The translations under genes and the position numbers were made by a program. The notes under the pieces were generated by a model. That model had not been told where the DNA came from and searched no databases. It worked only from the letters and a program-made list of their open reading frames with translations. Below, piece after piece: positions 21,373-35,385 of a stretch of DNA of 64,000 bases. Source of the DNA: Ignavibacterium sp. (GTDB taxonomy: Bacteria; Bacteroidota; Ignavibacteria; Ignavibacteriales; Ignavibacteriaceae); assembly GCA_018335755.1 (NCBI GenBank), contig JAGXRK010000061.1, positions 6,646 to 70,645 on the forward strand, in the 5' to 3' direction. How positions within the stretch are numbered: position 1 is the stretch's first letter; each line of letters opens with the position of its first letter.

Positions 21373-21462
21373 TTTACATAAGTCAACATTATCGGACACA
21401 AGACAGAAAGACAATATTCGTAAAGATGATTAGCCGTGCTCGGATAATGTTCCTTATGTAAA
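21373..21462. other. Long imperfect hairpin (10 + 9 bp stem) in the non-coding region
   Basis: tttacataag-tc-aacattatc (21373-21393) pairs with gataatgtt-c-cttatgtaaa (21443-21462). Confidence 0.6.
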
Positions 21463-21533
21463 TCTGGCTGACAATGTAAGGTTTAACCTCCCCCAAAATG
21501 CCAAGTGGCTTGACTTACTGTCTTCTTTAGTTT

Positions 21534-21994
21534 GGGAGTGAGCTGAACGATAGTGGAACGAAAGTGAAGCGAACGAGCAAAGTAAAGACCTGCCAATGAA
21601 AAGTGATTACTACCAATGTCAAAATAGTTGCGACCGTAATGTAGGTTGGATCATATCCAGACGGAATGAGGGCGCAATTATTTTGGACAGCAAGATGTTT
21701 TAGTTTGCGAATGAAGTCATCTGTTAACAATGGCGTAATGAGCAAATTAAAACAAACCAATGTTACGTGATTATTGACAAGCCAAAAAATATCTGCGACT
21801 GAATGAGGATTCCGTTCGAGCGGAACCCGGAATGAAGGAGCAGTTATTTTTTGTTAGAAAGATTATGCTAAGTTATACTATCGCTAGCGAGTGAGGTCTG
21901 CGAAGCAGGGCGAACGAGTGGTCTTCCCATTCATATTTTATAACAGTGCCTTGAAACCATAAGCGAGCGAGATTCTCGATGTAATCGAGTGAGC
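21534..21994. repeat. Cluster of at least 9 degenerate GA(A/G)(C/T)GAG-type motif copies with local hairpins, relatively GC-rich and non-coding
   Basis: Examples: gagtgagctgaacgatagtggaacgaaagtgaagcgaacgagc, gaatgagggcgc, gcgaatgaag, gcgtaatgagc, gaatgagg-attccg...cggaat-gaaggagc, gctagcgagtgaggtctgcgaagcagggcgaacgagtgg, aagcgagcgagattctcgatgtaatcgagtgagc. Stops occur in all frames. Confidence 0.6.
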
Positions 21995-22036
21995 AGATAA
22001 AAAAATAATATAAATGTTTTTCTTAAGGGAATTTGA

Positions 22037-22045
22037 GGGGGGGGG
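22037..22045. repeat. G9 homopolymer
   Basis: gagggggggggtacc, a conspicuous G-run in an AT-rich genome, about 100 nt downstream of the DUF3883 gene stop. Confidence 0.6.
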
Positions 22046-22143
22046 TACCGTTTGTTAAAATTGAAATGTAACCAACCATAAGTGCAGCATATTTTTGCTG
22101 AAATTTTTAGAAAACCGTACTGTCCTCTTTATATTATATAAAC

Positions 22144-23676
22144 CTATATCGCTGTACCTTTAAACACTGCTACATACGAATCAGGATACATATCTAGAAC
22201 CTTAAATAAGTTACCATTAATACGATACAGATTACCTGTATTATTTTTCTTGTCAAAATTAAATACACGATACAACCAATATGATTTATTTTTGAGCTTA
22301 CTAAATTCTAACTCAGTTGGAGAAATATTAAACTGTGTATCCTTATCTTTTGATTTTGTTGTTTTAATTTCAATAAATATTTCGTTTCCAAATTCATCAT
22401 AAGATTTAACATCGTAACCCGTTCCGTCTCCTTTTTCTCTAGAAATATGCTCAATCTTCATTCCTGGTTTAAGTAAGTCCTTAAGCCTATTTTTCTCAAA
22501 CTCAATCACGAGTAATTCTCCAGCTAGTCCAAGTTTTTTTGATTCTCTTTGTCGCTTTATATGATCCGTTTTATAGCCTTTAAAAGTATGAATAATAGGC
22601 AAAAGTATTTTGGGATCTGGCGGATCAACTTCTTCGAGAGAATTTTTTGGTTGTTTTATTTTTCCCTTACCCCAAACATATTTTATTGCATCCTCATATA
22701 ACTTATCGTATTTAGATATGAAATTGTTTGTATTATTAATTAAAGTTGCCCAATTAAGTTTTTTAATTTCATCCAAATTAATTTCAATCCACTCAGAACC
22801 ACTACCAGCTATAAAGTTATCGAATTTACTAACCTGTTCTTTTGTTAATTTAATACCTCCTGACGGGCGACTTCTTTGGCAGTCTAATTTGTAAATTAAA
22901 GCCGTTCTTGAATAATCAATACCAACAGTAAAATATATAAGTCTATCTTTATCCTTTTGTTTAAATGCTTTCCCCCAAGTATAGGCGGAATAAACACCCA
23001 TTATTTGCCACATAGTATTAGTTTCTTTAACATAGCCGGGTACAGAAATAGACTCTAACCAATAATTAGTCTTATCATATAACTTCTCTCTTATCTCTTG
23101 GCCAATTTTAACATCTTCAGGATTATTTTTTCTATAAGGTTTCCCTGCATACTTTGAATATCTGACAATATCAGTAGTTAAGAAGAATTCAGGAATCTCA
23201 CTAAATGTTTTTTTAACTTGCTCAAGAGTTTCAGGCAAGATGAAATAATGTATATGTGCTTTGGGTTTATATGGTGTGCCATTAATATTATGAAGTTTAT
23301 AAAATGAATCGAGTACTGAATCTAAGAAACTACTTGATTCAAGTCTTTTCCCATAAATTTTCCGAAAATTTTGATCTGTTAAATGACCACTTCTATCTAT
23401 AGCATAATGTTTATCGTGAAGTTGAAAAGTATTATTCTTGTAACCGACAAACTTACTTGGAGCAAATTCAATATTTCCATTAATTATTTCAAGAATGAAG
23501 GTTTTACCACTTTTTAATTTATGCTTATAATATTCTGCCAAACGATTTTTTCTATTATTACGATAGGAAATCAACGTTTTAAAATTCTTTAAGACCTGAG
23601 GTTGATTTACTACATAATTTTCGTCCATCTTCACACCATTTTTATTTTTTAATTTATATAATTTTTGTTTGCTCAT
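22144..23676 (-). CDS. DUF3883 (PD-(D/E)xK-like) C-terminal domain protein with an uncharacterised ~370-aa N-terminal region
   Basis: C-terminus LAGELLVIEFEKNRL...GYDVKSY...IFIEIKTTKS...YWLYRVFNF matches the DUF3883 pattern. ATGA overlap with the upstream gene. Confidence 0.65.
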   Translation of the reverse strand: MSKQKLYKLKNKNGVKMDENYVVNQPQVLKNFKTLISYRNNRKNRLAEYYKHKLKSGKTFILEIINGNIEFAPSKFVGYKNNTFQLHDKHYAIDRSGHLTDQNFRKIYGKRLESSSFLDSVLDSFYKLHNINGTPYKPKAHIHYFILPETLEQVKKTFSEIPEFFLTTDIVRYSKYAGKPYRKNNPEDVKIGQEIREKLYDKTNYWLESISVPGYVKETNTMWQIMGVYSAYTWGKAFKQKDKDRLIYFTVGIDYSRTALIYKLDCQRSRPSGGIKLTKEQVSKFDNFIAGSGSEWIEINLDEIKKLNWATLINNTNNFISKYDKLYEDAIKYVWGKGKIKQPKNSLEEVDPPDPKILLPIIHTFKGYKTDHIKRQRESKKLGLAGELLVIEFEKNRLKDLLKPGMKIEHISREKGDGTGYDVKSYDEFGNEIFIEIKTTKSKDKDTQFNISPTELEFSKLKNKSYWLYRVFNFDKKNNTGNLYRINGNLFKVLDMYPDSYVAVFKGTAI

Positions 23677-24611
23677 AATGTTAATCCCAATGTTGCTATA
23701 ATTCTATTCTTAAGAATTTCCATATCTGCTTTAATTGTATCAACACTCCAAATAACAGTGGTTAAATGATTAGTATCAAAGTGTGTTTTGTTCTCTCTGA
23801 ATATAGTTCTCTCACATAAATAAACGACAGGTATTTTACATCCTTCAGCAAAACCCGCTTCCCAATATGCACCACTATTACCGTGGGTTAGGTCTACTAA
23901 AAGTAAATGAGAATTACGGATCTCTTCTCTTAATTGATTATCCATAATTCCGGCTTTCAGTCTTTCATCTAACGTGACCAAATCAATTCCCATAGAATTC
24001 AAGGTCGGTTTAAAGTATTTTTTATATATTGAATCAAGTAAATGATCATTGTATTGCATAGCCATAAATGCAATTCTATTTTTATTCGGTTCTTCATTTA
24101 AAGACTCAACAAATTCCCACCCATCTGGTGTTAAATGTCCTTGAAAATCATCTCCAGAATCAAGATAAGCTTTAATAATACCTTTCTTATCTAAATCGGT
24201 AGCTATATAATAAACGCCATTCCTATCTTTTGCACCAATTATTGAGGCAATTACATTCATATTCTGGATTACATCTTCACCAGGAGAATTGGTTTTATCT
24301 GCAATCCAAGAAACAAAGATGTTACTTTGCTCTTTTACAGACGGGAGATTAATATTTTGTAATATTGATTCTATATTTCGAGTATCAATCTTTGGCCCTC
24401 TATCACCTTGTTGATGATGACGAATCCAATAACTTAATCTAGAATTCCAATTTTTATAATCCTGTAAAGGAGTTACCGTAAAAATCAGCTGAGTAATAAC
24501 AAATTTTAAGCAACGAGGACAACGTGTAACAATTTCTTCACCGTGGTCATCAAATGTGATTTTGGCCAGCATACCACAGACTGGACATTTTGTAGGATCA
24601 ATCTCTTTCAT
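23673..24611 (-). CDS. Zn-ribbon protein with a C-terminal nucleoside 2-deoxyribosyltransferase-like (TIR-related Rossmannoid) domain
   Basis: N-terminal CPVCG...CPRC. C-terminal IAFMAMQY...LLLVDLTHGNSGAYWEAGFAEGCKIPVVYL resembles the NDT-family core with its conserved Glu. Confidence 0.55.
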   Translation of the reverse strand: MKEIDPTKCPVCGMLAKITFDDHGEEIVTRCPRCLKFVITQLIFTVTPLQDYKNWNSRLSYWIRHHQQGDRGPKIDTRNIESILQNINLPSVKEQSNIFVSWIADKTNSPGEDVIQNMNVIASIIGAKDRNGVYYIATDLDKKGIIKAYLDSGDDFQGHLTPDGWEFVESLNEEPNKNRIAFMAMQYNDHLLDSIYKKYFKPTLNSMGIDLVTLDERLKAGIMDNQLREEIRNSHLLLVDLTHGNSGAYWEAGFAEGCKIPVVYLCERTIFRENKTHFDTNHLTTVIWSVDTIKADMEILKNRIIATLGLTL

Positions 24612-24910
24612 TTCTTCAACCTTCTTTCAATCTTCTCATAATCCCCAAGATATGCTCTCATAAGGCACTTCCAGAGTTTGCCGTGATTTGGGTAATGGAA
24701 GTGTAATAGTTCGTGGACAATAACATATCTGCCCAGCTTTTTATCCATTTCTATCAATTCGTCATTGAAGTTTAAGTTGCCATCGGTTGAGCAGGATGCC
24801 CATTTACGGGTCATAGGACGCATAGAGATGCGTTTTAAAGCAATATCTAGCTTCACTGCATACTTTATCACTTCTTTTTTGAATTCGTATTTATCTTTCC
24901 AATTACTCAT
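24608..24910 (-). CDS. DUF45/YgjP-like zinc metallopeptidase (short form)
   Basis: HELLHFHYPNH (HExxH) motif. 100 aa. Overlaps the hsdR stop by 8 nt. Confidence 0.7.
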   Translation of the reverse strand: MSNWKDKYEFKKEVIKYAVKLDIALKRISMRPMTRKWASCSTDGNLNFNDELIEMDKKLGRYVIVHELLHFHYPNHGKLWKCLMRAYLGDYEKIERRLKK

Positions 24911-27824
24911 TGGCTTTTAGTATAATGTTGAACAGATCATCAATAATTTGTTTAGCTTTTTCTATGTCATCCATTCCTGATAAAAGAGTTAAATACATTT
25001 CCTGCCTGAGTTCTCTTGTCTCTGCTTCACTTGCTTGCCAATGGGGATATTTCTTAAAGCTCTCCGTAAAACTGTTAGCAGTGTTATCACTGTTACTCAA
25101 TCCATACTCTTTAAGCTTAGTTGAAAAGAAAAATGTTAAATCATCAAATCCTTTTGATTTCTTTTCGTCCTCCTGGCTTAATGCAGCTTTGATTAATGCT
25201 TCGAGTTCTTCCAATGCTGACTGAGTTGTGATTATTCTATCTTCATAATTTTCCTGGATGGCTTGTGCTTTTTCCTTAATAGAAATAAGCACAAGATCAC
25301 CGCTATGTTCTTCTGCATATTTACCAATGGTTTTTACGAGGTTTATGACTTTTACATTATCCGGTTTCTGTCCTGCTTTAATCAGCTCAATGGTTTTTTC
25401 ATTTAGCTCATAGGCATCTGTTGTCATTTCAAGATTTTCTATATCAACATTCTCTTTTACCAAATCAATCGTCTTTCTCTGAAATTCTTTGTCAACATAA
25501 ATGTGCTTTGCATAGGCATTGCGGACAATGTAATAGATCTGAGTTAGAAGTTTATAATTATCAATGTACGGTCTTAAAAATGCATCAGGTGAAATGATTT
25601 CATACAGCATTTCAATTTCTTTATAGAACTTAAAGAATTCTTTGCGTTTGGATTTAGATTTGAAATGCTCAATCAGCTTATCAATTTCTTTATCATTGTA
25701 AGGTGGTTTTATCAATCCTAAATATTTTGGAGCTATGCTTTCAAGATTTTTCTTAAATAAATCTTTAAGAAGTGCTAAATCTTTGATAACACTTTTTATA
25801 TCATCAGAATCAAAGGCTAATGCTTTTTCCAGCTTATCAAATATTCCAATAAAATCTATCACCAATCCGAATGGTTTCTTCTTTCCTTCTTCATCTTCAT
25901 AAGGACGGTTGACTCTTGCTATTGCCTGAAGCAATGTGTGATCTCTCATTGGCTTATCTAAATACATTGCATAGAGTATCGGTGCATCGTAACCGGTTAA
26001 AAGCTTTTCTGTAACGATTAGAATTTTTGGTAGGATTTCATTCTTTGCAAAATTCTTGCGGATGGTTTTTTCTTCTTCTTTATCTATATGAAATTCTTTT
26101 AGCTGTTCTGTATCGTTATGTGCACCTGTATAAACAACCTGAGAGTATTCGGGGGGCAGGTATTTATCCAAAGCTTTTTTATAAAGCGCACAAGCTTCTC
26201 TATCTACTCCGACTAAAAATGCTTTATAGCCAAGATTCTCGACATAGGTTTGATAGTGCTCTGCAACAAACTTTGCAATCTTCGCTATTCTACTTTTGCC
26301 TTTTAGGAAATGTCTTGTCTGGACAGCCTTTTCCAGAATCTTATTTAATTCATCAATATCACTTACACCTTCAGCTTCTGCCAGCTTTAGAAATTCCTTT
26401 TCAAGAATATCTTCAGGTACTCTTAAATCATTTGGGGCAAGTGAATAATAAAGAGGTAATGTCGTACCATCAGTAATAGAATCTGAAATCGAGTATTTAT
26501 CCAGATAACCTTTAGGATCATCTATTCCGAAAGTTTTAAATGTTCCCCTGCCGTAAGCTGTTTTATCTATTGGCGTACCTGTAAATCCGATTAGAGTTGC
26601 ATTCGGAACAGCAGCCATTAAATAATTTCCTAAATCACCGGAGGTTGTCCTGTGTGCTTCATCCACTAAAACATAAATATTTTTTCGCTTGTTGATGTTG
26701 GGAGGCATATCATTAAACTTATGAATCATACTAACTATCAAACCACGATAATCATCTTTTAACAAATCTCTCATTACTGCAATGCTGTTTGCGTGAGCTA
26801 CATTCTGAATTCCCAATGACGTAAGATTGCGAATCATCTGGTCTTCAAGTTCGTTTCTGTCAATCAATAAAATGATAGTTGGTTTATCTGCTTCCGGTTT
26901 TTTGAATAATAGCTCTGATGATTTGATGATTGTGAATGTTTTACCTGATCCCTGAGTATGCCAGACCAATCCCCTGCTCTTTTGAGTATCTAAAGCTCTT
27001 GTTACAACCTTTTCCACCGCTTCTACCTGATGCTGACGCAAAATATATTTATTTAACTCCTCGTCCTTCTCAACAAAGACAATATATTTTTTCAGATAAG
27101 CTAAGATTCTGTCTATAGCAAAAAATGTTTTTACCTTTGATTCAAGATTTCCAATCTCTTCGCTTTTCCAGTTGAAAAGATTTTTGCGATTTGTATTCCA
27201 GGTTACTCCATATAAAAAACCAAGTGCTTCTGTTACAGTGTAGATTTGCTGAGGGATAAGCATTTCGGGGGTTTCTCTATGGTATCGTCTTATCTGATCT
27301 ATTCCGATTGCAAAGGCTTCATCTTTGGTTGCGTTTTTACACTCGATAACAATTACAGGAATGCCATTAATAAAGAAGACAATGTCTGCCCTGTTGCCAT
27401 ACCTGCCGTTGTTAAAATAATATTCTTCCGAAACGTGATAAGTGTTATTGGTGTGATCTTCAAAATCTATAAGCTTGAGGTTATACTCACGGTTATCTTC
27501 AGAGCAAAAGAATGTTTTTTCTCCCCTGAGATATTGAAGGAAATCTTTGTTACCCTGAATATCTGTACGAAGGCTTTTAAGTTTTGGAAGAAGGTTGTTG
27601 TCTTTTTCAGTGTATTTGGGATTAAACTTAAATACTTTTTCAAGTAAAATATCTTTTAAGAATGGATGTGAGTTTTTAGCTCTTTCTGATGGTAATGTTG
27701 CTGAAGTATCGAAGTGTCTTAGTTTCTCTGTTTCTGACTGAGTTAATATCTCCCAACCAATTTTAGATGAATATTCTAAAATTCTTTTTTGAACAGTTGT
27801 ATGTTCTGTGAATGAATCGCTCAT
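24903..27824 (-). CDS. hsdR: Type I restriction enzyme R subunit
   Basis: N-terminal nuclease ADIVFFINGIPVIVIECK. Helicase motifs HTQGSGKTFT, VLVDEAHR and GFTGTPI. QAIARVNR. 973 aa. Confidence 0.9.
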   Translation of the reverse strand: MSDSFTEHTTVQKRILEYSSKIGWEILTQSETEKLRHFDTSATLPSERAKNSHPFLKDILLEKVFKFNPKYTEKDNNLLPKLKSLRTDIQGNKDFLQYLRGEKTFFCSEDNREYNLKLIDFEDHTNNTYHVSEEYYFNNGRYGNRADIVFFINGIPVIVIECKNATKDEAFAIGIDQIRRYHRETPEMLIPQQIYTVTEALGFLYGVTWNTNRKNLFNWKSEEIGNLESKVKTFFAIDRILAYLKKYIVFVEKDEELNKYILRQHQVEAVEKVVTRALDTQKSRGLVWHTQGSGKTFTIIKSSELLFKKPEADKPTIILLIDRNELEDQMIRNLTSLGIQNVAHANSIAVMRDLLKDDYRGLIVSMIHKFNDMPPNINKRKNIYVLVDEAHRTTSGDLGNYLMAAVPNATLIGFTGTPIDKTAYGRGTFKTFGIDDPKGYLDKYSISDSITDGTTLPLYYSLAPNDLRVPEDILEKEFLKLAEAEGVSDIDELNKILEKAVQTRHFLKGKSRIAKIAKFVAEHYQTYVENLGYKAFLVGVDREACALYKKALDKYLPPEYSQVVYTGAHNDTEQLKEFHIDKEEEKTIRKNFAKNEILPKILIVTEKLLTGYDAPILYAMYLDKPMRDHTLLQAIARVNRPYEDEEGKKKPFGLVIDFIGIFDKLEKALAFDSDDIKSVIKDLALLKDLFKKNLESIAPKYLGLIKPPYNDKEIDKLIEHFKSKSKRKEFFKFYKEIEMLYEIISPDAFLRPYIDNYKLLTQIYYIVRNAYAKHIYVDKEFQRKTIDLVKENVDIENLEMTTDAYELNEKTIELIKAGQKPDNVKVINLVKTIGKYAEEHSGDLVLISIKEKAQAIQENYEDRIITTQSALEELEALIKAALSQEDEKKSKGFDDLTFFFSTKLKEYGLSNSDNTANSFTESFKKYPHWQASEAETRELRQEMYLTLLSGMDDIEKAKQIIDDLFNIILKANE

Positions 27825-27959: not shown

Positions 27960-29210
27960 TTATCCCACTAATTTTAATTCAATATCTTTAACCCGAATTT
28001 GACCAGACATTAGTTGATTTAAAGATGAACGGAAAAGATCTTTATTATATTGAAGTAGTGTCTTTTCCTGATCGATTTTCGAATTCAAGGATTCTAAATA
28101 CTCACTCATCAAATTTTGTTCTTTAATATGTGGCAAACCAACTTTAATTTCGTGGATAATACCTTGTGTAACCAGAGGTTGACCACCTCTATTACGAAAT
28201 CTGTTCAAGTCAAAATATGTTAGAAATTCTTTCATATAATTAATGTTAAATTCTCTCAAAACTTTTTTCGTGTACAAGGCATTATCACTAATCCAACTTA
28301 CTCCTTTTGTAACGTAAGTAACTCCGCAATATTCTCCGACTCGCCCAATAACTAAAACTGGCATATCAAGCATTTTCAACTCTGTATATCCTAATATTCC
28401 ATTACCACCAAAAATTGGAATCGTTTTTAGATTATCAGGTAATTCAGAAATATCTTTAGGCCTTCCTTTACCACTACTTAATTTGAATAATTTGCCAAGC
28501 TCAATGACTTCCCAACTTTTCGGTATTGGACCAATCTCTGTTTGTTTTTGTGGTTCGCCGTTAAGTCCCTCCGTAAAGAGTTTTTGCATTAATGCTTTTT
28601 TAAGCTCTTGAGTGGTTTTAATTATTTGTTCCTGTGTTTCGATTGCCTGCTGTATTTTGGAAAGCACGTGAGCAATTTTTTTTTGCTCGGGGAGAGATAT
28701 TTTAGGTATACCTGCTTTTTCTTTATAAGAAGTAAAATTTAAATTTCTGATACCTGTTGTTCTCGCCTGAAGAGAATCAGTCCTACCTGATAAGTAAAAA
28801 TGAAGCAATGAATAAAAAACATATTTGGGAAGAAATTCATTCTGATTAAGTGTTCTTAAACAACTTGTGAAATTACTAAAGCTATATTCACCCGTAGATC
28901 GATCAAAAAAAACAACTCTACCGACTGGTTGAGTTGGTCCACCACCTGATCTTTCAATAATAACGTCACCAAAGAATAATTTTCTACTCTGATACTGTTT
29001 TTCTTCGACATCTAAGACTGCAACATCCGAATAATCGACTATTCCAAATTCTGTGAAGTTTGTATTTCTAATTACAGTTACTACTTTAAATGGTGGTTTC
29101 TTCCCTTTCCATAATCCATTTATCGTTTTAAAGTATTCCTCATTTTCCAAGGGAATTAAATTCCAATGCTCAGGGAGTAAACCGATATCAGTATTTTTGA
29201 AGTTGTCCAT
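27960..29210 (-). CDS. hsdS: Type I restriction enzyme S (specificity) subunit
   Basis: Two TRD halves separated by the central helical spacer LPEQKKIAHVLSKIQQAIETQEQII, with a matching C-terminal helix. 416 aa. Confidence 0.85.
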   Translation of the reverse strand: MDNFKNTDIGLLPEHWNLIPLENEEYFKTINGLWKGKKPPFKVVTVIRNTNFTEFGIVDYSDVAVLDVEEKQYQSRKLFFGDVIIERSGGGPTQPVGRVVFFDRSTGEYSFSNFTSCLRTLNQNEFLPKYVFYSLLHFYLSGRTDSLQARTTGIRNLNFTSYKEKAGIPKISLPEQKKIAHVLSKIQQAIETQEQIIKTTQELKKALMQKLFTEGLNGEPQKQTEIGPIPKSWEVIELGKLFKLSSGKGRPKDISELPDNLKTIPIFGGNGILGYTELKMLDMPVLVIGRVGEYCGVTYVTKGVSWISDNALYTKKVLREFNINYMKEFLTYFDLNRFRNRGGQPLVTQGIIHEIKVGLPHIKEQNLMSEYLESLNSKIDQEKTLLQYNKDLFRSSLNQLMSGQIRVKDIELKLVG

Positions 29211-29211
29211 T

Positions 29212-30840
29212 TCAAGCTGCCTTAATATAAAGCTTGAATGAAATATCTTCTACCTGAATAAAATTTTCTTTCAATACCTTTTTAGAATAATCATTATTTA
29301 TTTTCTTTAAAAGAAACATTGAATATCTTCTTTCAAGTTTATTCATATTTCTAGATTTATTTTTAAGTAAATCACTCAAAGGCTTTAGTTTACGTGGATG
29401 TTTGCTCCTGAGGATATCAACATTTTCAATAAAATATTTTAGACACAACACTCTTGAATACCACTGATATTCTAAGAAATGAGATTTTTTATAAAATCTA
29501 TAAAAGAATTCAATTTTATTTTTGGTTTTATAATATCTTATTAAAAACTGAAGCACAAAAAATTCAGTGTGAGGGTAAATATTTTTTGGTGAATAAAGAT
29601 ATCGGACTAGATATTCGCCAAGTCTAGGATATTTGAGAATCAATGTATTAAGAAACGTATAACTGCTCTCATTTACTTTATAAGATAATTTTGGATTGCC
29701 TAATATTTCATCTACAAACGAACGAGCTTCTTTATATGACTTTATATATTTAGCATTTTTTGTTTTACCAGTAAAGACTTTAAAGGCATAATTAGCAGGC
29801 GAAAACCATCTACCTCCTTTGTTTTTTTCAGTAGTTTGTGTGAGTCTACTAAACATATTTAGAATTGAATCTGCACGTTTGGTCCTTAAAATTTTATCAA
29901 ATTCTTTGAAGTACCAGTAATTATAATATTCTTTTCGATTTAATATTTTAATTTTTTGTTCATTTAGATTAAGTTTTAATTTTTGTAAATAAAAAGAACA
30001 TACCTGAATTATCTTTTGAGCATCATCCTTTTTACCATTAAAACTAATCCAAATATCATCAGCGTATCTTGAATAAATATGATCATTCTTATTAAAGATC
30101 TTATTCAAATATGATGTTATGTCAACATCGAAACTATTTAAATAAAAATTAGCTAAAAGTCTTGACATTTCCCCTAGTTCTTCCTGAGGGATACCAACAT
30201 TAGCCGGATTGTAACCTAAATCTCTTTTGTCAGCATTACGTAAAAAATAGAATAATAAATCAATGACATTTTGCTTTTTATTTATCTTACTTCTCAATGT
30301 ACGCTCTAGAATATCTAGATTTATATCGTCATAAAAGTGTGCAATATCAATATGAATGTAATACTTAAACTTTTTATCATATAAATATCTTGCAAGTTTC
30401 TGATATTCACCCCACTCCTTTCTAAAACCATAAATGTTTAATGCATTTTCATATGCTGGATCATAGGTTGTTTCCTCTATTTTAGATTCATCAAATTTCA
30501 AATCCTTTGTAATTCTAAATCCACCAAATACGTTAGGGATAAGCTTAATGACTGAAATTATTTCATCCTGTATTTGTTTAATACAGTAGTAATAAATAGA
30601 AATATCACTGAGATTAAATATTTTAACTTTACGTACTACACCTTTAGACTTTGGAGCATATAAATAATATGGAAGCTTGAAAGCGTAATTATAAGATACA
30701 AGATCATCAACAAGTTCATTTAGAAATTTTTCTCTATTTACATCACGATAATTAATAATATCCCTGAAAAAACTCTCTTTTGTTATGTGCTTCCAGAATG
30801 GAATATCTATTGATTTGATGAATTCTGATTTATCGATCAT
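29212..30840 (-). CDS. Stand-alone reverse transcriptase (Abi/UG-like) with a helical C-terminal extension
   Basis: RT motifs in order: PKSKGVVRKVKIF, HIDIAHFYDDI, GIPQEELGEMSRLLANFYL, YSRYADDIWISF, LNLNEQKIKIL. No maturase, endonuclease or RNase H region recognised. Confidence 0.8.
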   Translation of the reverse strand: MIDKSEFIKSIDIPFWKHITKESFFRDIINYRDVNREKFLNELVDDLVSYNYAFKLPYYLYAPKSKGVVRKVKIFNLSDISIYYYCIKQIQDEIISVIKLIPNVFGGFRITKDLKFDESKIEETTYDPAYENALNIYGFRKEWGEYQKLARYLYDKKFKYYIHIDIAHFYDDINLDILERTLRSKINKKQNVIDLLFYFLRNADKRDLGYNPANVGIPQEELGEMSRLLANFYLNSFDVDITSYLNKIFNKNDHIYSRYADDIWISFNGKKDDAQKIIQVCSFYLQKLKLNLNEQKIKILNRKEYYNYWYFKEFDKILRTKRADSILNMFSRLTQTTEKNKGGRWFSPANYAFKVFTGKTKNAKYIKSYKEARSFVDEILGNPKLSYKVNESSYTFLNTLILKYPRLGEYLVRYLYSPKNIYPHTEFFVLQFLIRYYKTKNKIEFFYRFYKKSHFLEYQWYSRVLCLKYFIENVDILRSKHPRKLKPLSDLLKNKSRNMNKLERRYSMFLLKKINNDYSKKVLKENFIQVEDISFKLYIKAA

Positions 30841-30855
30841 TTTTAATTTTATATT

Positions 30856-31515
30856 TTAGCAACAATTGGTGCTTTTATTTGAAAGCGCATTTATTCTATT
30901 AGGATGCTTCTTGGTTAAATCTTTTCCATATAATTTTACTTTTGCACAACTAAACAAAAAATCATACAATTTCTTGCCAATATTTTCATCAAGCTTATGT
31001 GGTTTTGATCCAACCCCTGCTTTGAAAGCCTTAATTAAAAAATCCGTTTGTAATCCATTTTTATTTAGAAATGGTAAAATATCAAGAAGATTATCTTTTG
31101 CATCTTGAGGCTGGAAACTCGTATCTGGCTCTGCTTTTAACGTATATCTTTTTCTTTTTTTAAATGGATGGTTATGCACCCATTTGTAGTGATGTTGGAA
31201 AGTTTGTTCATTATCTACAATATAATCATTACGACTTATTTTATTATTGTCCTTCCAAAATATTTTTTCAGCTATATGAAAAACACAATCACAGTTCAAT
31301 TCTGTAAAGTCATTAAGAGATGGTTTCCCTGAAACCCAAAAATTAACCTGATTCTTATAGTTTGAAAGTTGTGTTATGTGACAATAAGTATGCAGAAATT
31401 TTTCATTCCAGATATAAGGATCCTCATTTCCTCCAAAGCTATCGTGATAAATCGTAAGCTTTCCATTATTATATCTACATCTTTCCGGATGATATATTAA
31501 ATAAAAGGGACCCAA
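30856..31515 (-). CDS. Hypothetical His/Cys/Trp-rich protein, predicted RT partner
   Basis: 219 codons with no stop and no internal Met. TTG start 1 nt after the hsdM stop. No family recognised. Motifs HDSFGG, CDCVFH and HHYKWVHNHPF. Confidence 0.55.
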   Translation of the reverse strand: MGPFYLIYHPERCRYNNGKLTIYHDSFGGNEDPYIWNEKFLHTYCHITQLSNYKNQVNFWVSGKPSLNDFTELNCDCVFHIAEKIFWKDNNKISRNDYIVDNEQTFQHHYKWVHNHPFKKRKRYTLKAEPDTSFQPQDAKDNLLDILPFLNKNGLQTDFLIKAFKAGVGSKPHKLDENIGKKLYDFLFSCAKVKLYGKDLTKKHPNRINALSNKSTNCC

Positions 31516-31516
31516 C

Positions 31517-33076
31517 TTAATACCCCAACTTTTTAAAAATATCTTTCAGCTCTTTATCGATAGCCTTTTGTTCCTGTTCAAGTTCTTTCAGGTCTTCGAG
31601 TATTTCGCCGATAGGTCTGTAAGTTTCCTCTTCTGCTGTGTGTATGTAGCGAGTTGGAGATAAGTTATAATCATTTTTTACTATTTCATCTTTATCAATA
31701 ACTTTGCTAAACTTTTCAATCTCTTTCCAGCTTAAATAAGCATCAACAATTTTATTCTGGTTTTCATCTGGTATAAAATTCTTTGGCTGTCCTTTTTGAA
31801 ATTCTTTAGAGGCGTTAATGAGTAAAATTTTATTCTTTTTACTTTTATCTTTCTTCCTGTTGAGAAACAGAATTATTCCCGGTGCAGGAGTATTATAAAA
31901 GAGATTTTCAGGTAAGTATAACACACCTTCAATTATATCCTGTTCTACAAACCATTTCCTAATTTCTTTTTCTCTGTTTGTACTTTGATTTCCCGAACCT
32001 CTTGAGACTGCACCTGTATCTAAAACAATTCCTGCTCTTCCTTTTTCATTTAAAGAAGCAAGAATATGTTGAGCCCAACCCCAATCTGCTGTACCGTTTG
32101 GTGGAAAGCCAGCACTAAATCTTTCAAGCTCATCATTTTCATAAGTCTTTTGATTAAAGTTACTCTGATTCCACATTGGATTAGCAGTTACAAGATCAAA
32201 TTTTCTTAGTCTGCTTCCATCTCTGAATTTTGGAGAGTTCATTGTATCACCAATTTCAATGGTACCTTCCATATCGTGAATAACCATATTCATATTAGCC
32301 ATTGCCCAGGTGCTTGAGATATATTCCTGTCCGTTTAATTGAAGCGGTGCATATTTTTCTTTAGATCGTAAATGCATTTTGTCCTGAAGGACCAACTGGC
32401 ATTTAATAAGCAATCCTGCAGAGCCACAGCAAGGATCATAGATTTCCTGCCCGGGTTCAGGATCGAGAATACGAGCTATAATAATTCCAACTTCTTTAGG
32501 TGTGTAGAATTCACCTGCACTTTGTCCTCCACCTTCAGCAAACTTTCTAATCAGATATTCATAGCTTCTGCCAATGATATCCGGTTCAACGTCTTTAAGG
32601 CCTAATCTCTTCTTGCTTATTTCTTCAATCAGGTTGCTGAGCTTGTCATCATCAATATCTCTTTGTCCGTGAGTGGTTGCGTTAAAATCAACTCTGTCAA
32701 TGATACCCTGTAAGCGTGGGTTTTCTCTGGCTATGTCTCTCATTCTGTTAGTAAGCTCTTCACCGATCTTTGTTGATAGCTTACGAATCACAGACCAGGT
32801 AGGATCATCAATGTTTTCAGGTCTTAAAGGAATGTAAAAGCGGATTAATTTTCTATCTTTTTCAATTAGCTTTAGAGCTTTTTGTTTATCACTAATCTTG
32901 TCCGTGATTCTTTGGACTTCGTCATCAAATACATCGCATAGTCTTTTTACAAAAATGAGGGGTAGTATAAAGTCTTTGTACTTCGGTGCGTCTTGCGCTC
33001 CTCTGATGGCGCAAGCCGCATCCCATATCCAGGATTCAAGGGATTTGTGATTGTTGTTATTTGACATATATGTCAT
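31517..33076 (-). CDS. hsdM: Type I restriction enzyme M subunit (N6-adenine DNA methyltransferase)
   Basis: HsdM N-terminal domain, motif I DPCCGSAGLL, motif IV ANPMWN. Confidence 0.9.
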   Translation of the reverse strand: MTYMSNNNNHKSLESWIWDAACAIRGAQDAPKYKDFILPLIFVKRLCDVFDDEVQRITDKISDKQKALKLIEKDRKLIRFYIPLRPENIDDPTWSVIRKLSTKIGEELTNRMRDIARENPRLQGIIDRVDFNATTHGQRDIDDDKLSNLIEEISKKRLGLKDVEPDIIGRSYEYLIRKFAEGGGQSAGEFYTPKEVGIIIARILDPEPGQEIYDPCCGSAGLLIKCQLVLQDKMHLRSKEKYAPLQLNGQEYISSTWAMANMNMVIHDMEGTIEIGDTMNSPKFRDGSRLRKFDLVTANPMWNQSNFNQKTYENDELERFSAGFPPNGTADWGWAQHILASLNEKGRAGIVLDTGAVSRGSGNQSTNREKEIRKWFVEQDIIEGVLYLPENLFYNTPAPGIILFLNRKKDKSKKNKILLINASKEFQKGQPKNFIPDENQNKIVDAYLSWKEIEKFSKVIDKDEIVKNDYNLSPTRYIHTAEEETYRPIGEILEDLKELEQEQKAIDKELKDIFKKLGY

Positions 33077-33299: not shown

Positions 33300-34244
33300 C
33301 TAGTTGGGTGATGGAAGTTTATATAGTCCGGTTTTGCTGCCCTTTATTATTTCCCCTGCAAGCAGCATCTTTCTGAGTAGCTGGCTTATCGATTCCCTTG
33401 ATTTTTGAAGTCTCTCAGCCATTTGGCCAACCCTGATTTCAAGGTCATATTGTCCTCCGAATAGCTCGATGATTTCCTGACGTTCCACTGTTGATGCTGA
33501 AATAATATTCTTATCCATTACTATCCAGCGGTGAGTTTCCTCATCCTGTGTCAGCAAATAATTTTCCTCCTTAACATCCCGTCCTGTAACGTGAAGGATA
33601 TAACCATTGGAATGCTTTTTGAGTATTAAAAGTGTATCCGGGGCAGCAGTGATTCCGGAAGTACCTACAATCTCATCAAAGACAGAATCGGCTTCACTTT
33701 TCCTTGTATGATGAATTAACAATATACAGAGTTGATTTTGAAGTGCAATATTCTGAAGCTCTGCCATAAAATCATATTCATCCTGGAATGATAAGCCAAA
33801 TTTTCTTTGATCTTTTGAGATTGCATTCCCTAGGGTATCGATGATAATTAAATTAAGATCCTCGTTCTGATCGACAGCTTGTCTGATCATTTTGATTCCT
33901 TCTAGATGAAATCGTCTAAATTCTGATTGATCAAGAAAAAACAGGTCACTTGAAGCTTCACCATCTTTAAGCATAGTATTTATTCTGTCTTTCAATCTTC
34001 TAAAATTATCTTCAAGTGCGATATACAAAACTTTACTTTTCTGAGTATCAAAATAATCCATAGTTTGTGCACCTGCAGAAGAAGCGAGTGCTAATTGTGA
34101 AGATAACCAGGACTTGCCTACCTTTGGCCTGCCAGCCAGGAGGGCTAAACCCTCCGGCAGCAGATCTTTAATTATCCAATTTATAGGTGGCAACTCCATT
34201 TTCTGGATTTCATTCGCTGAAACTAGTTTTAGATTTTCTTTCAT
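33300..34244 (-). CDS. AAA_25/RepA-like RecA-fold ATPase of the mobile element
   Basis: Walker A LLAGRPKVGKSW and Walker B LIIIDTLG. This architecture is common next to integrases. Confidence 0.7.
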   Translation of the reverse strand: MKENLKLVSANEIQKMELPPINWIIKDLLPEGLALLAGRPKVGKSWLSSQLALASSAGAQTMDYFDTQKSKVLYIALEDNFRRLKDRINTMLKDGEASSDLFFLDQSEFRRFHLEGIKMIRQAVDQNEDLNLIIIDTLGNAISKDQRKFGLSFQDEYDFMAELQNIALQNQLCILLIHHTRKSEADSVFDEIVGTSGITAAPDTLLILKKHSNGYILHVTGRDVKEENYLLTQDEETHRWIVMDKNIISASTVERQEIIELFGGQYDLEIRVGQMAERLQKSRESISQLLRKMLLAGEIIKGSKTGLYKLPSPN

Positions 34245-34257
34245 TTCTGTAGTTCTC

Positions 34258-34536
34258 CTAATTTATAGTTGTATTTAGTTTTGATTGTAATTCTTCGATA
34301 GTATAAATTCTATCCTTTTCCACCCATTCTATGAGGTCCGATTTTTTGAAGAGAAGCTTCTTTGTGCTTTTATAGAATGGGATTTCCCGTTTGAAGACCA
34401 TCTGGTAAATAGTAGTCTTTTTCAGCTTGAGAAAGCTGCTGGCTTCATTGATATCCATAAACTCTGTTTCTTTTGTTTGTATAGAGTTTAGAATGGACTC
34501 AATTTTGTTTAATTGGTGTTGGATTTGCTTTTCCAT
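34258..34536 (-). CDS. Excisionase-family / MerR-like helix-turn-helix DNA-binding protein
   Basis: INEASSFLKLKKTTIYQMVFKREIPFYKSTKKLLFKKSDLIEWV. Confidence 0.65.
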   Translation of the reverse strand: MEKQIQHQLNKIESILNSIQTKETEFMDINEASSFLKLKKTTIYQMVFKREIPFYKSTKKLLFKKSDLIEWVEKDRIYTIEELQSKLNTTIN

Positions 34537-34627
34537 ATTTACTCCTATTAGTGGTGAAAAATTTTAGAGTAAAAATAAAATGTGTGTGGCGGGCTTAGTA
34601 ACTACTTAATGACTACCTTTGACTACC

Positions 34628-35383
34628 TTATTCCTGATCAAATCTTAATTTCTTCAGTTTATCACTGATTTGATGAGTTTCATTTTTATTATTTATGTTG
34701 TTGTTTAAATGTTTTAACTTTTTCGGATCAATTTCAGAATCATTCCAAGTAAAATGTTTAGCTAATATTTGATATTTGTTTTTTTTATAAACAAAAAAAC
34801 CCGATTCGAAGAGTTTGTTGAACAAAAATACAAAATCTTCTTTTTTCTCCTGCCAAACCAATTTATCATTCTGCCCCTGATTATCTTCTTCGTCATCATC
34901 CCCTAAAACTTCATTAATAATTAATACTTTTCTTATTAACTTATCTAACCAAATAGAGTAATCCTTAAATTCAAGCACTAATGATAAAACATCGATATCA
35001 CGCTTACCAGTTTTTTTATCTTCTAATATCATTCTGACCACTTTATCTTCTATTTTATTCAGGTCAAGATTATTGATATAAATTTTGTATTCTTGTTTTG
35101 ATAATTCATTATTCTTATTCAATTTGAATTTAAAGGAAGATTTATCTTCCGAGTCGAATATTGTTTCAGCATCAAGAAATTTTGAAAATGAATGGGATTG
35201 TAGGGCTTGTGTAATTTTAATTATTCTGTCTCTTTTTTCGATGAGATAGTTTAAAGCTGCTTTATCATCCAGGTTTTTGAGTTTTTCTTCAATCGCACCA
35301 ATAGTAAAACCATAATGCCCTATGAAATAAGTATCTGGTGTTTCTAAACGCTCCAGACCGCTTGAATATTTCATTAAATCCAT
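34628..35383 (-). CDS. Hypothetical island protein
   Basis: 251-aa ORF between the integrase and the HTH gene. Lys/Asp-rich. No family recognised. Confidence 0.45.
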   Translation of the reverse strand: MDLMKYSSGLERLETPDTYFIGHYGFTIGAIEEKLKNLDDKAALNYLIEKRDRIIKITQALQSHSFSKFLDAETIFDSEDKSSFKFKLNKNNELSKQEYKIYINNLDLNKIEDKVVRMILEDKKTGKRDIDVLSLVLEFKDYSIWLDKLIRKVLIINEVLGDDDEEDNQGQNDKLVWQEKKEDFVFLFNKLFESGFFVYKKNKYQILAKHFTWNDSEIDPKKLKHLNNNINNKNETHQISDKLKKLRFDQE

Positions 35384-35385
35384 AT

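What the first reader, a model, noticed from the sequence alone, without database searches (positions are those of the whole stretch)
22144..24910. hsdR is translationally coupled to three accessory genes: DUF45 peptidase, Zn-ribbon/deoxyribosyltransferase-like protein and DUF3883 nuclease-like protein
Seen: four consecutive minus-strand genes overlap. The hsdR stop at 24903 overlaps the ATG at 24910 by 8 nt. ATGA overlaps occur at 24611/24608 and at 23676/23673. The 100-aa protein has HELLHFHYPNH (HExxH; DUF45/YgjP-like). The 312-aa protein has an N-terminal CPVCG...CPRC ribbon and a C-terminal segment LLLVDLTHGNSGAYWEAGFAEGCKIPVVYL, which resembles the catalytic core of nucleoside 2-deoxyribosyltransferase-like (TIR-related) domains. 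The 510-aa protein ends in a DUF3883-type module (GYDVKSY...IFIEIKTTKS...YWLYRVFNF, i.e. D...ExK) behind a ~370-aa N-terminal region I cannot assign. Established: DUF45/YgjP genes are frequent neighbours of type I hsdR. NDT/TIR-like folds act on nucleotides or NAD in several defence systems. DUF3883 has a restriction-endonuclease-like fold. Inference: the NDT-like plus DUF3883 pair could be a second, nucleotide-targeting or nuclease effector layer co-expressed with the restriction subunit.
Basis: partly seen in the sequence, partly recalled or inferred. Interest (0 to 1): 0.75.

Follow-up and report, generated by a model that had tools for sequence, protein, structure and literature searches.

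The report
Restriction operon with swappable accessory defence genes
A type I restriction-modification operon on a mobile island carries extra predicted anti-phage genes at its tail, which look like independent, exchangeable modules from uncharacterised families rather than a fixed two-gene system.

Summary
hsdR, a 100-aa YgjP-like HExxH protein, a 312-aa protein and a 510-aa protein sit head-to-tail on the minus strand, with 8-nt, ATGA and ATGA overlaps.

- **312-aa protein:** Zn-ribbon, then winged helix, then an NDT/TIR-superfamily domain. The AF2 model has pLDDT 92. Foldseek hits SARM1 TIR, MilB, DNPH1 and NDT. The invariant Glu aligns with the catalytic-motif Glu of DNPH1/Rcl.
- **510-aa protein:** it ends in an intact NOV_C (DUF3883) PD-(D/E)xK nuclease. 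Its unassigned part splits into a rare N-terminal region and a widespread central domain with no Pfam or PDB match. That domain is also fused to McrB-like AAA_5 and to weak SfsA/NERD-like nuclease matches.

The proposed functional pair is not supported. In 80 other genomes the 312-aa family has no hsdR, YgjP or NOV_C neighbour and no conserved partner. In close relatives hsdR-YgjP is the stable core (80-95% identity), and the downstream slot turns over:
- NDT plus NOV_C;
- NOV_C without NDT;
- NDT plus a GmrSD/HNH protein;
- NDT plus a MauJ-like protein.

NOV_C relatives recur inside other type I operons.

Best reading: an RM operon with a fast-turnover slot for independent accessory defence genes. 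This is a known theme built here from uncharacterised families. Mechanisms are inferred.

The parts
31517..33076 (-). hsdM, the type I methyltransferase; first gene of the array
   Evidence: PF02384 3e-95 and PF12161; PADLOC MTase_I 1.9e-171.
30856..31515 (-). 219-aa ORF of unknown function, embedded between hsdM and the reverse transcriptase
   Evidence: No Pfam, PADLOC or NCBIfam hit. It lies 1 nt after the hsdM stop.
29212..30840 (-). UG13b-class reverse transcriptase embedded between hsdM and hsdS
   Evidence: PADLOC RT_UG13b 2.8e-119; PF00078 2.9e-15. UG13b is predicted to be defensive in 10.1101/2021.12.02.470933.
27960..29210 (-). hsdS, the specificity subunit
   Evidence: PF01420 1.1e-17; PADLOC Specificity_I 6.8e-40.
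24903..27824 (-). hsdR, the restriction subunit
   Evidence: TIGR00348 9.8e-145; HSDR_N, SWI2_SNF2 and T1R_D3-like domains. Identity to relatives L083/L081/L102 is 95/94/80%.
24608..24910 (-). Half-size YgjP-like (DUF45) HExxH metallohydrolase. With hsdR it forms the conserved core.
   Evidence: PF01863 1.1e-24, profile positions 113-206 of 207. Identity is 84-89% in L081, L083, L102 and L105, and the 8-nt overlap with hsdR is kept in L081, L083 and L102.
24477..24611 (-). 312-aa protein, residues 1-45: four-Cys Zn ribbon
   Evidence: C9, C12, C31 and C34 are invariant in 116 sequences. The AF2 model shows three short strands here, pLDDT above 87.
24087..24476 (-). 312-aa protein, residues 46-175: helical linker plus a winged-helix-like domain. 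Together with the Zn ribbon it is the putative sensor module.
   Evidence: AF2 secondary structure gives H92-106, E114-117, H118-125, H130-142, E146-148, E155-160. This part is the fastest-diverging: median identity 27.6% against 50.4% for the C-terminal domain. The same module is fused to a different C-terminus in L095 (hmmsearch 3e-36).
23673..24086 (-). 312-aa protein, residues 176-312: NDT/TIR-superfamily domain, a predicted N-glycosidase with invariant E251
   Evidence: Foldseek hits SARM1 TIR, MilB, DNPH1 and NDT. PF05014 is hit by 17 of 17 members, best 1.7e-6. Invariant residues are FMAM182-185, D224, Y249, E251, G253, H277, F278, D279 and H282.
23200..23676 (-). 510-aa protein, residues 1-159: N-terminal region restricted to a small clade; fold unresolved
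   Evidence: About 10-15 of the listed representatives match any part of it; roughly half of those span most of it (P0144, P0145, P0147, P0163, P0179). AF2 pLDDT is 40-68.
22642..23199 (-). 510-aa protein, residues 160-345: widespread unnamed central domain, putatively for target (DNA) recognition
   Evidence: 426 representatives at E<=1e-3. It is fused to NOV_C in 60 of 102 proteins and to McrB-like AAA_5 in 8 of 102; weak sub-threshold SfsA (3/102) and NERD matches also occur. AF2 pLDDT is above 90. No Pfam or PDB match.
22144..22641 (-). 510-aa protein, residues 346-510: linker helix plus NOV_C/DUF3883 PD-(D/E)xK nuclease domain
   Evidence: PF13020 4.8e-20; PADLOC PDC-S36 2e-36, PD-T4-1 1.7e-17 and TmtA 1e-12. 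D422, E436 and K438 are invariant. Weak fold hits to Hjc, SwaI and AvaII.
33300..36423 (-). Mobility genes upstream of the operon: an AAA_25 protein (33300-34244), 92-aa and 251-aa ORFs, and a 345-aa ORF (35386-36423) that looks like a tyrosine recombinase
   Evidence: PF13481 6.1e-29 for the 314-aa protein. The 345-aa ORF was judged recombinase-like by eye from its translation (...HTARHTFAT...LGH...Y); no HMM was run on it.

Best explanation
The locus is a type I restriction-modification operon on an integrase-bearing island of an Ignavibacterium MAG. It has collected several independent accessory defence genes.

**Stable core and variable slot.** hsdR plus a short YgjP-like metallohydrolase form the stable core. 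The DNA just downstream is a fast-turnover cargo slot, and in this genome it holds two separate modules.

**Module 1, the 312-aa protein.** It belongs to a large, uncharacterised and usually solitary family: Zn ribbon, then winged helix, then an NDT/TIR-like domain. I infer a single-protein abortive-infection-type effector. The fast-evolving N-terminal module would sense a phage cue (DNA or protein). That would release or assemble the C-terminal N-glycosidase, which uses invariant E251 to hydrolyse NAD+ or a (deoxy)nucleotide and so stops phage replication.

**Module 2, the 510-aa protein.** I infer a restriction-type nuclease. A central recognition domain, shared with McrB-like GTPases and other nuclease fusions, would bind the target, most likely foreign or modified DNA. 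The intact NOV_C PD-(D/E)xK domain would cut it, complementing type I restriction in the way a type IV enzyme does.

**Shown versus inferred.** Shown: gene order, domain assignments, conservation of catalytic residues, lack of a conserved partner, and slot turnover. Inferred: the defence role, the substrates, the triggers, co-transcription and translational coupling.
For: **Operon and island**
- Searches give the gene array and the mobility genes.
- No terminator-like site was found on the minus strand within 21000-33600, which covers the operon.

**312-aa protein**
- More than 1432 homologue clusters, all about 315 aa.
- 461 confirmed matches in a collection of one genome per species (185,579 genomes), spread over many phyla.
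- Four Cys and E251 are invariant.
- The AF2 model has pLDDT 91.7. Foldseek hits TIR, MilB, DNPH1 and NDT. PF05014 is hit by 17 of 17 members. The Glu motif aligns with DNPH1/Rcl.

**Solitary habit of the 312-aa family**
- 0 of 80 loci have an hsdR, YgjP or NOV neighbour.
- 390 neighbours fall into 359 clusters.
- 148 nearest neighbours cover 167 Pfam families, mixing housekeeping, RM, toxin-antitoxin and integrase genes.

**Effector swapping**
- L095 carries a 527-aa protein with the same N-terminal module (3e-36) but a different C-terminus, weakly DUF4145-like.

**Slot turnover**
- hsdR is 80-95% and YgjP 84-89% identical across relatives. The NDT gene is 75%, 46%, 44% identical or absent. 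NOV is 72-77% identical or is replaced by GmrSD_N+HNH or a MauJ-like gene.

**510-aa protein**
- Relatives sit between hsdS and hsdM, or next to hsdM, in L085/L092, L087 and L089. L096 has a type I system 4 kb away. Others lie beside ABC-3C, KAP NTPase, RT-AEP or HNH genes.

**Precedents**
- TIR-like single-protein NADase defence, Swarozyc (10.64898/2026.05.01.722283).
- An NDT-type retron effector that depletes nucleoside derivatives (10.1101/2023.08.16.553469).
- Genes embedded in type I RM systems as defence candidates.
Against: - No experiment bears on either protein.
- The 312-aa family's neighbourhoods are not clearly enriched in defence genes. Many neighbours are housekeeping genes, so the defence role rests on architecture, patchy distribution and this locus.
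- All four contexts of the nearest 312 relatives (44% identity or more) follow hsdR-YgjP. A clade-specific functional tie to the RM core is therefore not excluded.
- The central domain of the 510-aa protein matches no known DNA reader. 'DNA recognition' is inferred only from its fusion partners.
- The substrate of the NDT/TIR-like domain is open: NAD+, a dNMP or an NMP.
- PF05014 and TIR scores are below Pfam's gathering thresholds.
Confidence: 0.6

Rival explanations
1. The 312-aa NDT-like protein and the 510-aa DUF3883 protein form one two-gene effector system. It would be translationally coupled and co-expressed with HsdR as a second, nucleotide- or DNA-targeting layer.
For: - The two genes overlap by ATGA here, and the same overlap is kept in L082-L084.
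- A second, more distant co-occurrence exists. In L095 a NOV493 protein (42% identity) lies two genes from a protein with the same Zn-ribbon/winged-helix module.
- Rossmann-like genes of the TIR/SLOG type flank NOV_C relatives in two other loci: a weakly DprA-like 148-aa gene next to P0127 and a DUF4062 gene next to P0130 in L087.
Against: - L081 keeps NOV (77%) but has unrelated 142-aa and 226-aa genes instead of the NDT gene.
- L101/L102 and L105 keep the NDT gene with GmrSD_N+HNH or a MauJ-like gene instead of NOV.
- 0 of 80 genomes with a 312-family gene have a NOV_C neighbour within 10 kb.
- NOV relatives in L085, L087, L089, L090, L091, L093 and L096 have no 312-family neighbour.
- In L095 an AAA_15 ATPase gene lies between the two genes.
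Confidence: 0.1
2. Guard model, like PrrC/EcoprrI. The accessory proteins are held inactive by the type I complex, or monitor it. They fire when a phage anti-restriction protein disables restriction, giving a retaliatory backup.
For: - The genes sit in the same array as hsdR, and the nearest 312 relatives always follow hsdR-YgjP.
- NOV_C relatives are inserted between hsdS and hsdM with 4-nt overlaps in L085/L086 and L087, and one lies next to hsdM in L089.
- PrrC is cited as found almost exclusively embedded in type I RM systems. The PrrC mechanism itself is from my own knowledge.
Against: - Most 312-family members (80 of 80 genome loci) and many NOV-family members have no type I system nearby. 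An obligate RM partner is therefore unlikely for the families as a whole.
- No interaction data exist.
Confidence: 0.15
3. Modified-nucleotide model. The 312-aa enzyme is a DNPH1/MilB-like N-glycosidase that destroys phage-specific hypermodified nucleotides such as hm-dCMP or hm-dUMP. The neighbouring nuclease (NOV510, or GmrSD/HNH in relatives) cuts modified DNA. Together they would cover phages that escape type I restriction by modifying their bases.
For: - Fold hits include MilB (with CMP and hmCMP complexes) and DNPH1.
- The best sequence-level PDB matches are Rcl/DNPH1, aligned over the Glu motif.
- In L101 the next gene is a GmrSD_N+HNH protein, a type IV family.
- The NOV510 central domain is shared with McrB-like AAA_5 proteins.
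Against: - The SARM1 TIR domain is the top fold hit.
- The DNPH1 sequence matches are not significant (E 0.5-1.1).
- No phosphate-binding motif was tested.
- Most family members have no type IV-like neighbour.
- The link is purely inferential.
Confidence: 0.1
4. The 312-aa protein is not an effector. It would be a transcription factor or a housekeeping salvage enzyme: the winged helix binds an operator and the NDT-like domain senses or processes a nucleotide ligand. Its place in this operon would be incidental.
For: - It has a winged-helix-like domain. One homologue is annotated as a MarR-family regulator and others as nucleoside 2-deoxyribosyltransferase by their sources.
- Many neighbours are housekeeping genes.
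Against: - The distribution is patchy and crosses phyla: 461 confirmed matches in a collection of 185,579 species genomes.
- There is no conserved regulon or partner.
- The putative catalytic Glu and a further H-F-D...H motif are invariant.
- The N-terminal module is fast-evolving and is swapped onto another C-terminus in L095.
- It occurs next to RM, toxin-antitoxin, RES or Abi genes in L042, L048, L067, L103 and L104.
Confidence: 0.05

Closest known systems
Genes embedded in type I RM, BREX or DISARM systems ('guilt-by-embedding', Payne et al. preprint 10.1101/2024.01.29.577857), with PrrC/EcoprrI as the classical case
   Same: Accessory genes sit in the same array as hsdM/S/R. Here the reverse transcriptase and the 219-aa ORF lie between hsdM and hsdS, and NOV_C relatives lie between hsdS and hsdM in other genomes.
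   Different: The 312-aa and 510-aa genes are appended after hsdR-ygjP rather than nested between hsd genes. No trigger or dependence on the RM complex is known. The 312-aa family has no PADLOC model; its only hit is a weak generic TIR effector match (2e-4).
Swarozyc, a DUF4062 TIR-like single-protein NADase defence (10.64898/2026.05.01.722283)
   Same: It has a TIR/NDT-like domain with a conserved catalytic Glu plus an auxiliary domain. It is a single gene with patchy distribution and variable neighbourhoods.
   Different: No PF13271 hit appeared at E<=0.1, so it is not a member. The domain order is reversed, with the effector at the C-terminus behind a Zn ribbon and winged helix. At sequence level it is closer to PF05014 than to TIR. 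It is untested.
Retron Ec86 (Eco1) NDT-type effector
   Same: A PF05014-like domain serves as a defence effector that depletes nucleoside derivatives.
   Different: No reverse-transcriptase neighbour was found in the 80 family loci. The UG13b reverse transcriptase here is about 4.6 kb upstream, separated by hsdS, hsdR and ygjP, and it is not a retron-class enzyme.
DNPH1/Rcl and MilB, nucleotide N-glycosidases of the NDT superfamily
   Same: They share the fold and the G-x-x-[YW]-E-x-G-x-A-x-x-x-G-K-P motif.
   Different: The sequence match is sub-significant. This protein has an extra 175-aa N-terminal module. The substrate and the phosphate-binding site were not examined. The gene context is not metabolic.
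NOV_C/DUF3883 defence candidates: PADLOC PDC-S36, PD-T4-1 and Tiamat TmtA
   Same: They share the C-terminal PD-(D/E)xK NOV_C domain (2e-36, 1.7e-17 and 1e-12).
   Different: Only the C-terminal half of the PDC-S36 profile (positions 140-279 of 280) is matched. The central and N-terminal domains of the 510-aa protein are not covered by any PADLOC or Pfam model.
Type IV restriction (McrBC, Mrr, GmrSD) next to type I systems, as in the E. coli hsd-mrr-mcrBC immigration control region (from my own knowledge)
   Same: It combines a recognition domain with a nuclease. The central domain also occurs at the N-terminus of AAA_5 (McrB-like) proteins. A GmrSD_N+HNH gene occupies the same slot in relative L101.
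   Different: No known modified-base reader fold (SRA, EVE, YTH and the like) was detected. There is no GTPase partner. Dependence on DNA modification is untested.

Membership tests
NDT / TIR N-(deoxy)ribosyl hydrolase superfamily (312-aa protein, residues 176-312) | Three-layer alpha/beta/alpha fold with parallel strands, similar to solved TIR and NDT structures | tested here: met
   The AF2 model has pLDDT 91.7. Foldseek hits: SARM1 TIR E 3.6e-5 (target-normalised TM 0.64), MilB 1.7e-4, DNPH1 3e-4, NDT 4e-4.
NDT / TIR N-(deoxy)ribosyl hydrolase superfamily (312-aa protein, residues 176-312) | Conserved catalytic Glu in the G-x-x-aromatic-E-x-G motif | tested here: met
   E251 is invariant in 116 sequences. 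It aligns with the Glu of the Rcl/DNPH1 GVGYELG motif, although that alignment has only E 0.5-1.1. That this Glu is the catalytic one is from my own knowledge.
Pfam PF05014 Nuc_deoxyrib_tr (strict membership) | Score at or above the gathering threshold of 28.8 bits | tested here: not met
   The window protein scores 16.7-18.9 bits. All 17 family members tested hit the model at E<=1, best 1.7e-6, so this is a related but distinct family.
NDT / TIR superfamily | N-glycosidase activity on NAD+ or nucleotides | not testable with these tools
   This needs purified protein and LC-MS assays.
Swarozyc / DUF4062 | PF13271 domain | tested here: not met
   PF13271 was not listed at E<=0.1 for the 312-aa protein. 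DUF4062 genes do occur as neighbours in L001 and L087.
NOV_C / DUF3883 PD-(D/E)xK nucleases (510-aa protein) | Pfam PF13020 above the gathering threshold | tested here: met
   71.9 bits against a cut-off of 22.1, over residues 386-478.
NOV_C / DUF3883 PD-(D/E)xK nucleases (510-aa protein) | Intact D...ExK catalytic motif | tested here: met
   D422, E436 and K438 are invariant in the 11-sequence alignment.
NOV_C / DUF3883 PD-(D/E)xK nucleases (510-aa protein) | Restriction-endonuclease-like fold | tested here: inconclusive
   The top Foldseek hits are Hjc, R.SwaI and AvaII, but at E 0.2-0.5. The fold assignment for DUF3883 comes from PMC3424549.
YgjP-like / DUF45 (100-aa protein) | PF01863 above threshold, with HExxH | tested here: met
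   88 bits against a cut-off of 26, and HELLH is present. Only the C-terminal half of the profile (113-206 of 207) is covered.
   The pair is kept only in L082-L084. It is broken in L081, L101/L102 and L105, and absent in 0 of 80 genome loci.
Type IV (modification-dependent) restriction enzyme (510-aa protein) | A recognised modified-DNA reader domain fused to a nuclease | tested here: inconclusive
   The nuclease is present. The central domain is shared with McrB-like AAA_5 proteins, but it matches no known reader in Pfam, PDB sequences, PDB folds or BFVD.
PADLOC PDC-S36 | Full-length match to the model | tested here: not met
   E is 2e-36, but only profile positions 140-279 of 280 are matched, by residues 364-505.
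PrrC-like guard of a type I RM system | Consistent embedding in type I RM loci | tested here: inconclusive
   NOV relatives: about 5 of 12 lineages examined lie in or beside type I loci. The 312-aa family: only the nearest clade does.
PrrC-like guard of a type I RM system | Latency imposed by the RM complex and activation by anti-restriction proteins | not testable with these tools
   This needs genetics and biochemistry.

The most novel reading that the evidence does not exclude
The Zn-ribbon, winged-helix and NDT/TIR-like family (more than 1400 clusters, 461 confirmed genome matches) would be a new, widespread single-protein anti-phage system. Its fast-evolving N-terminal module would sense infection and switch on an N-glycosidase. 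In this clade it would be wired to the 3' end of hsdR-ygjP as a backup for failed restriction. Its substrate might be hypermodified nucleotides rather than NAD+. Beside it sits a nuclease built on a previously undescribed recognition domain that is shared with McrB-like GTPases.
Probability: 0.2. Interest if true: 0.75.

Novelty: new variant of a known kind. Interest (0 to 1): 0.5.

Why it matters
Type I restriction operons are known to collect embedded defence genes. This locus adds two concrete, testable candidates.

- **A large uncharacterised protein family.** It joins a Zn-ribbon/winged-helix module to an NDT/TIR-like catalytic domain. If it is defensive, it extends the NAD+/nucleotide-depletion theme (TIR, Swarozyc, retron NDT effectors) to a new architecture, and it has a ready catalytic mutant (E251).
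- **A widespread, unnamed, confidently folded domain.** It is fused in turn to NOV_C or to McrB-like GTPases, with weak hints of SfsA- and NERD-type nucleases. It may be a new target-recognition module of restriction-type systems.

The comparison of close relatives also shows a defined hot spot downstream of hsdR-ygjP where such genes are exchanged. That is a practical way to find further candidates.

Tried and rejected
- **Homologue search with the N-terminal module only** (residues 1-175 of the 312-aa protein). It returned nothing, only 5 word candidates. Effector swapping therefore rests on the single L095 case.
- **Foldseek of the full 510-aa model** against PDB and BFVD. There was no significant hit. 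I could not cut the model into domains, and no structure jobs remained.
- **Profile of the central domain** against PDB sequences and Pfam. Nothing was found.
- **Metagenome scan for the central domain.** The first alignment was too diverse. The second found only 7 loci. The viral-contig scan found none.
- **312-aa family in mobile elements.** There is no match in the phage collection, 5 matches among 2.9 million viral contigs, and 24 distant plasmid matches.
- **Island borders.** No tRNA lies in 15000-42000, and there are no convincing flanking direct repeats.
- **Promoter scan.** It did not exceed the shuffled expectation, 65 found against 56.5 +/- 7.8 expected, so it says nothing about an internal promoter. 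The 135-nt gap before hsdR remains the only hint.
- **Rfam.** There are no matches in 20000-38000.
- **Retron-like link between the UG13b reverse transcriptase and the NDT protein.** I considered and rejected it. No reverse transcriptase lies near any of the 80 family loci.
- **The 142-, 226- and 307-aa slot genes of relatives as disguised NDT homologues.** I considered and rejected it. hmmsearch with the family profile gave E above 0.2.
- **Literature on PD-T4-1.** The search gave no usable description of that system.

Full report
**Observation.** The ORF map and the sequence confirm four consecutive minus-strand genes.
- hsdR spans 24903-27824.
- A 100-aa gene spans 24608-24910 and overlaps hsdR by 8 nt.
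- A 312-aa gene spans 23673-24611, with an ATGA overlap.
- A 510-aa gene spans 22144-23676, with an ATGA overlap.

These four genes are the tail of a longer same-strand array: hsdM, a 219-aa ORF, a UG13b reverse transcriptase, hsdS, hsdR, ygjP-like, the 312-aa gene and the 510-aa gene. The gaps are 1, 15, 1 and 135 nt. Upstream lie an AAA_25 protein and a recombinase-like ORF, so the whole looks like a mobile island. The exact 312-aa and 510-aa proteins are on record from an Ignavibacterium sp. MAG. Overlaps of this kind are ordinary in operons, and coupling is an inference. One caveat applies: most homologues of the 510-aa protein begin at the equivalent of M17.

**The 100-aa protein.** It matches YgjP-like PF01863 (1.1e-24), but only the C-terminal, HExxH-bearing half of the model. 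This short form is conserved next to hsdR in four relatives, at 84-89% identity. The 8-nt overlap is kept in L081, L083 and L102.

**The 312-aa protein.** It belongs to a large family of uniform length, about 315 aa.
- There are 1432 clusters at E<=1e-3.
- There are 461 confirmed matches in a collection of one genome per species (185,579 genomes), across Proteobacteria, Planctomycetota, Chlorobi/Ignavibacteria, Bacteroidota, Chloroflexi, Nitrospirota and others.
- C9, C12, C31 and C34 are invariant. So are FMAM182-185, D224, Y249, E251, G253 and the H277-F278-D279...H282 motif.
- The AlphaFold model is confident (pLDDT 91.7). It shows a Zn ribbon, a helical linker, a winged-helix-like unit and a C-terminal alpha/beta domain.
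- Foldseek places that domain with SARM1 TIR (E 3.6e-5), MilB, DNPH1 and NDT.
- At sequence level all 17 C-terminal domains tested hit PF05014 (best 1.7e-6), and 2 hit TIR.
- The best PDB sequence matches are weak. They are Rcl/DNPH1, aligned so that GAYWEAGFAEGLGKPV lies on GVGYELGRAVALGKPI. This places E251 on the Glu of that motif, which I take from memory to be the catalytic one.

The window protein itself is below Pfam's threshold. No NCBIfam or family-level PADLOC model exists for it.

**Is the 312-aa protein tied to hsdR or to the DUF3883 gene?**
- In 80 genome loci with 10-kb flanks, none had an hsdR, YgjP or NOV510 homologue near the family member.
- The three nearest genes on each side, 390 in all, fall into 359 clusters.
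- The 148 closest neighbours span 167 Pfam families. They mix housekeeping genes with a few RM, toxin-antitoxin and integrase genes.
- The family as a whole is therefore solitary and mobile.
- The nearest relatives differ. P0002 (75% identity), P0003 (46%) and P0004 (44%) all follow hsdR-ygjP.
- Other near relatives follow a RES-domain gene beside AbiEi/AbiEii (L103), or a type ISP methyltransferase plus an HD-CE protein (L104).

**The slot downstream of hsdR-ygjP turns over.**

| Locus | Genes in the slot |
|---|---|
| window | NDT312, NOV510 |
| L082/L083 | 307-aa unknown, NDT312, NOV510 |
| L081 | 142-aa and 226-aa unknowns, NOV494 (no NDT) |
| L102/L101 | NDT316, GmrSD_N+HNH |
| L105 | NDT316, MauJ-like |

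Contigs L101 and L102 overlap identically over 1216 nt. Against hsdR at 80-95% and YgjP at 84-89% identity, the NDT gene is only 75%, 46% or 44% identical and NOV only 72-77%. Divergence is concentrated in the N-terminal module. Against P0003, the Zn ribbon is 21% identical, the winged helix 39% and the catalytic domain 57%. The family medians are 27.6% and 50.4%. In L095 the same N-terminal module (hmmsearch 3e-36) is joined to a different C-terminus that is weakly DUF4145-like. This pattern fits a sensor with exchangeable effectors.

**The 510-aa protein.**
- The C-terminus is NOV_C (PF13020, 4.8e-20), with D422, E436 and K438 invariant.
- It matches the C-terminal parts of PADLOC PDC-S36, PD-T4-1 and TmtA.
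- Searching residues 1-370 against 1.84 billion representatives gave 426 hits. Nearly all of them cover residues 160-340.
- This central domain is confidently modelled (pLDDT above 90).
- It is found fused to NOV_C in 60 of 102 proteins and to McrB-like AAA_5 in 8 of 102. Weak sub-threshold SfsA and NERD matches also occur in a few.
- It matches nothing in Pfam, PDB sequences, PDB folds or BFVD.
- Residues 17-160 are shared in full by only a handful of proteins (partial matches bring this to about 10-15) and are poorly modelled.
- Relatives sit between hsdS and hsdM with 4-nt overlaps (L085/L086/L092 and L087), next to hsdM (L089), or 4 kb from a type I system (L096). Others lie beside ABC-3C, KAP NTPase, RT-AEP/HNH/NERD or AAA_15 genes.
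- This subfamily is therefore an island resident that recurs in type I loci. It does not depend on the 312-aa family.

**Interpretation.** The best-supported reading is an RM operon with independent accessory modules in a fast-turnover slot.

For the 312-aa protein, I infer that a Zn-ribbon/winged-helix sensor controls an NDT/TIR-like N-glycosidase that depletes NAD+ or nucleotides. Two precedents support this:
- the TIR-like NADase Swarozyc;
- the NDT-type retron Ec86 effector.

For the 510-aa protein, I infer a restriction-type nuclease whose central domain recognises the target. Two facts suggest a type IV-like role:
- the central domain occurs in McrB-like proteins;
- a GmrSD/HNH gene occupies the same slot in L101.

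The general phenomenon is already described (Payne et al.).

The rivals cannot be excluded without experiments and are given lower weights:
- an obligate two-gene system;
- a PrrC-like guard of the RM complex;
- a hydrolase for modified nucleotides;
- a non-defence regulator.

**Verdict.** The proposed NDT-DUF3883 pair is not supported as a system. The locus is a new variant of a known kind and yields two good experimental candidates.

Noticed in passing
window 29212-31515 (minus strand): A UG13b-class reverse transcriptase (PADLOC 2.8e-119) and a preceding 219-aa ORF with no family hit are nested between hsdM and hsdS. The gaps are 1-15 nt. No Rfam RNA was found nearby.
   Followed up: partly
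window 33300-36423 (minus strand): An AAA_25 protein (PF13481, 6e-29), a 92-aa and a 251-aa ORF, and a 345-aa ORF that looks like a tyrosine recombinase by eye lie upstream of hsdM. This suggests an integrative element. No tRNA or flanking direct repeats were found to mark its ends.
   Followed up: partly
L095:3564-5147: A 527-aa protein shares the Zn-ribbon/winged-helix module of the 312-aa family (E 3e-36). Its C-terminus is different, with a weak DUF4145 hit and an R-x4-H-like RNYVH motif. It lies after an AAA_15 ATPase gene and a NOV_C gene that is 42% identical to the 510-aa protein.
   Followed up: partly
L001:6274-6912 and L087:7396-8007: DUF4062 genes (recently reported as TIR-like NADases, Swarozyc) lie directly downstream of a 312-family gene in L001 and of a NOV_C relative in L087. 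The two DUF4062 proteins are 34% identical to each other.
   Followed up: no
L101:1111-2481 and L105:1689-2498: In relatives, the position of the 510-aa gene is taken by a GmrSD_N+HNH protein (456 aa) or by a MauJ-family protein (269 aa). The MauJ-like protein's role in such a slot is unexplained.
   Followed up: no
window 22037-22045: A run of nine G (nine C on the minus strand) lies about 100 nt downstream of the 510-aa gene's stop, in a region of about 31% G+C. It could be a slippage-prone tract, but no function is evident.
   Followed up: no
L085:6053-7839 and L087:8004-9404: Other type I operons that hold NOV_C relatives also hold SLFN/AlbA_2 plus HATPase_c_4 genes. L085 also has an extra EcoEI_R_C fragment gene. 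These loci are multi-cargo RM operons too.
   Followed up: no
window 24903-27824 versus 27960: The only sizeable intergenic gap in the array, 135 nt, precedes hsdR. It may hold a separate hsdR promoter, as I recall for classical hsd loci. The sigma-70 scan was uninformative for this organism.
   Followed up: partly
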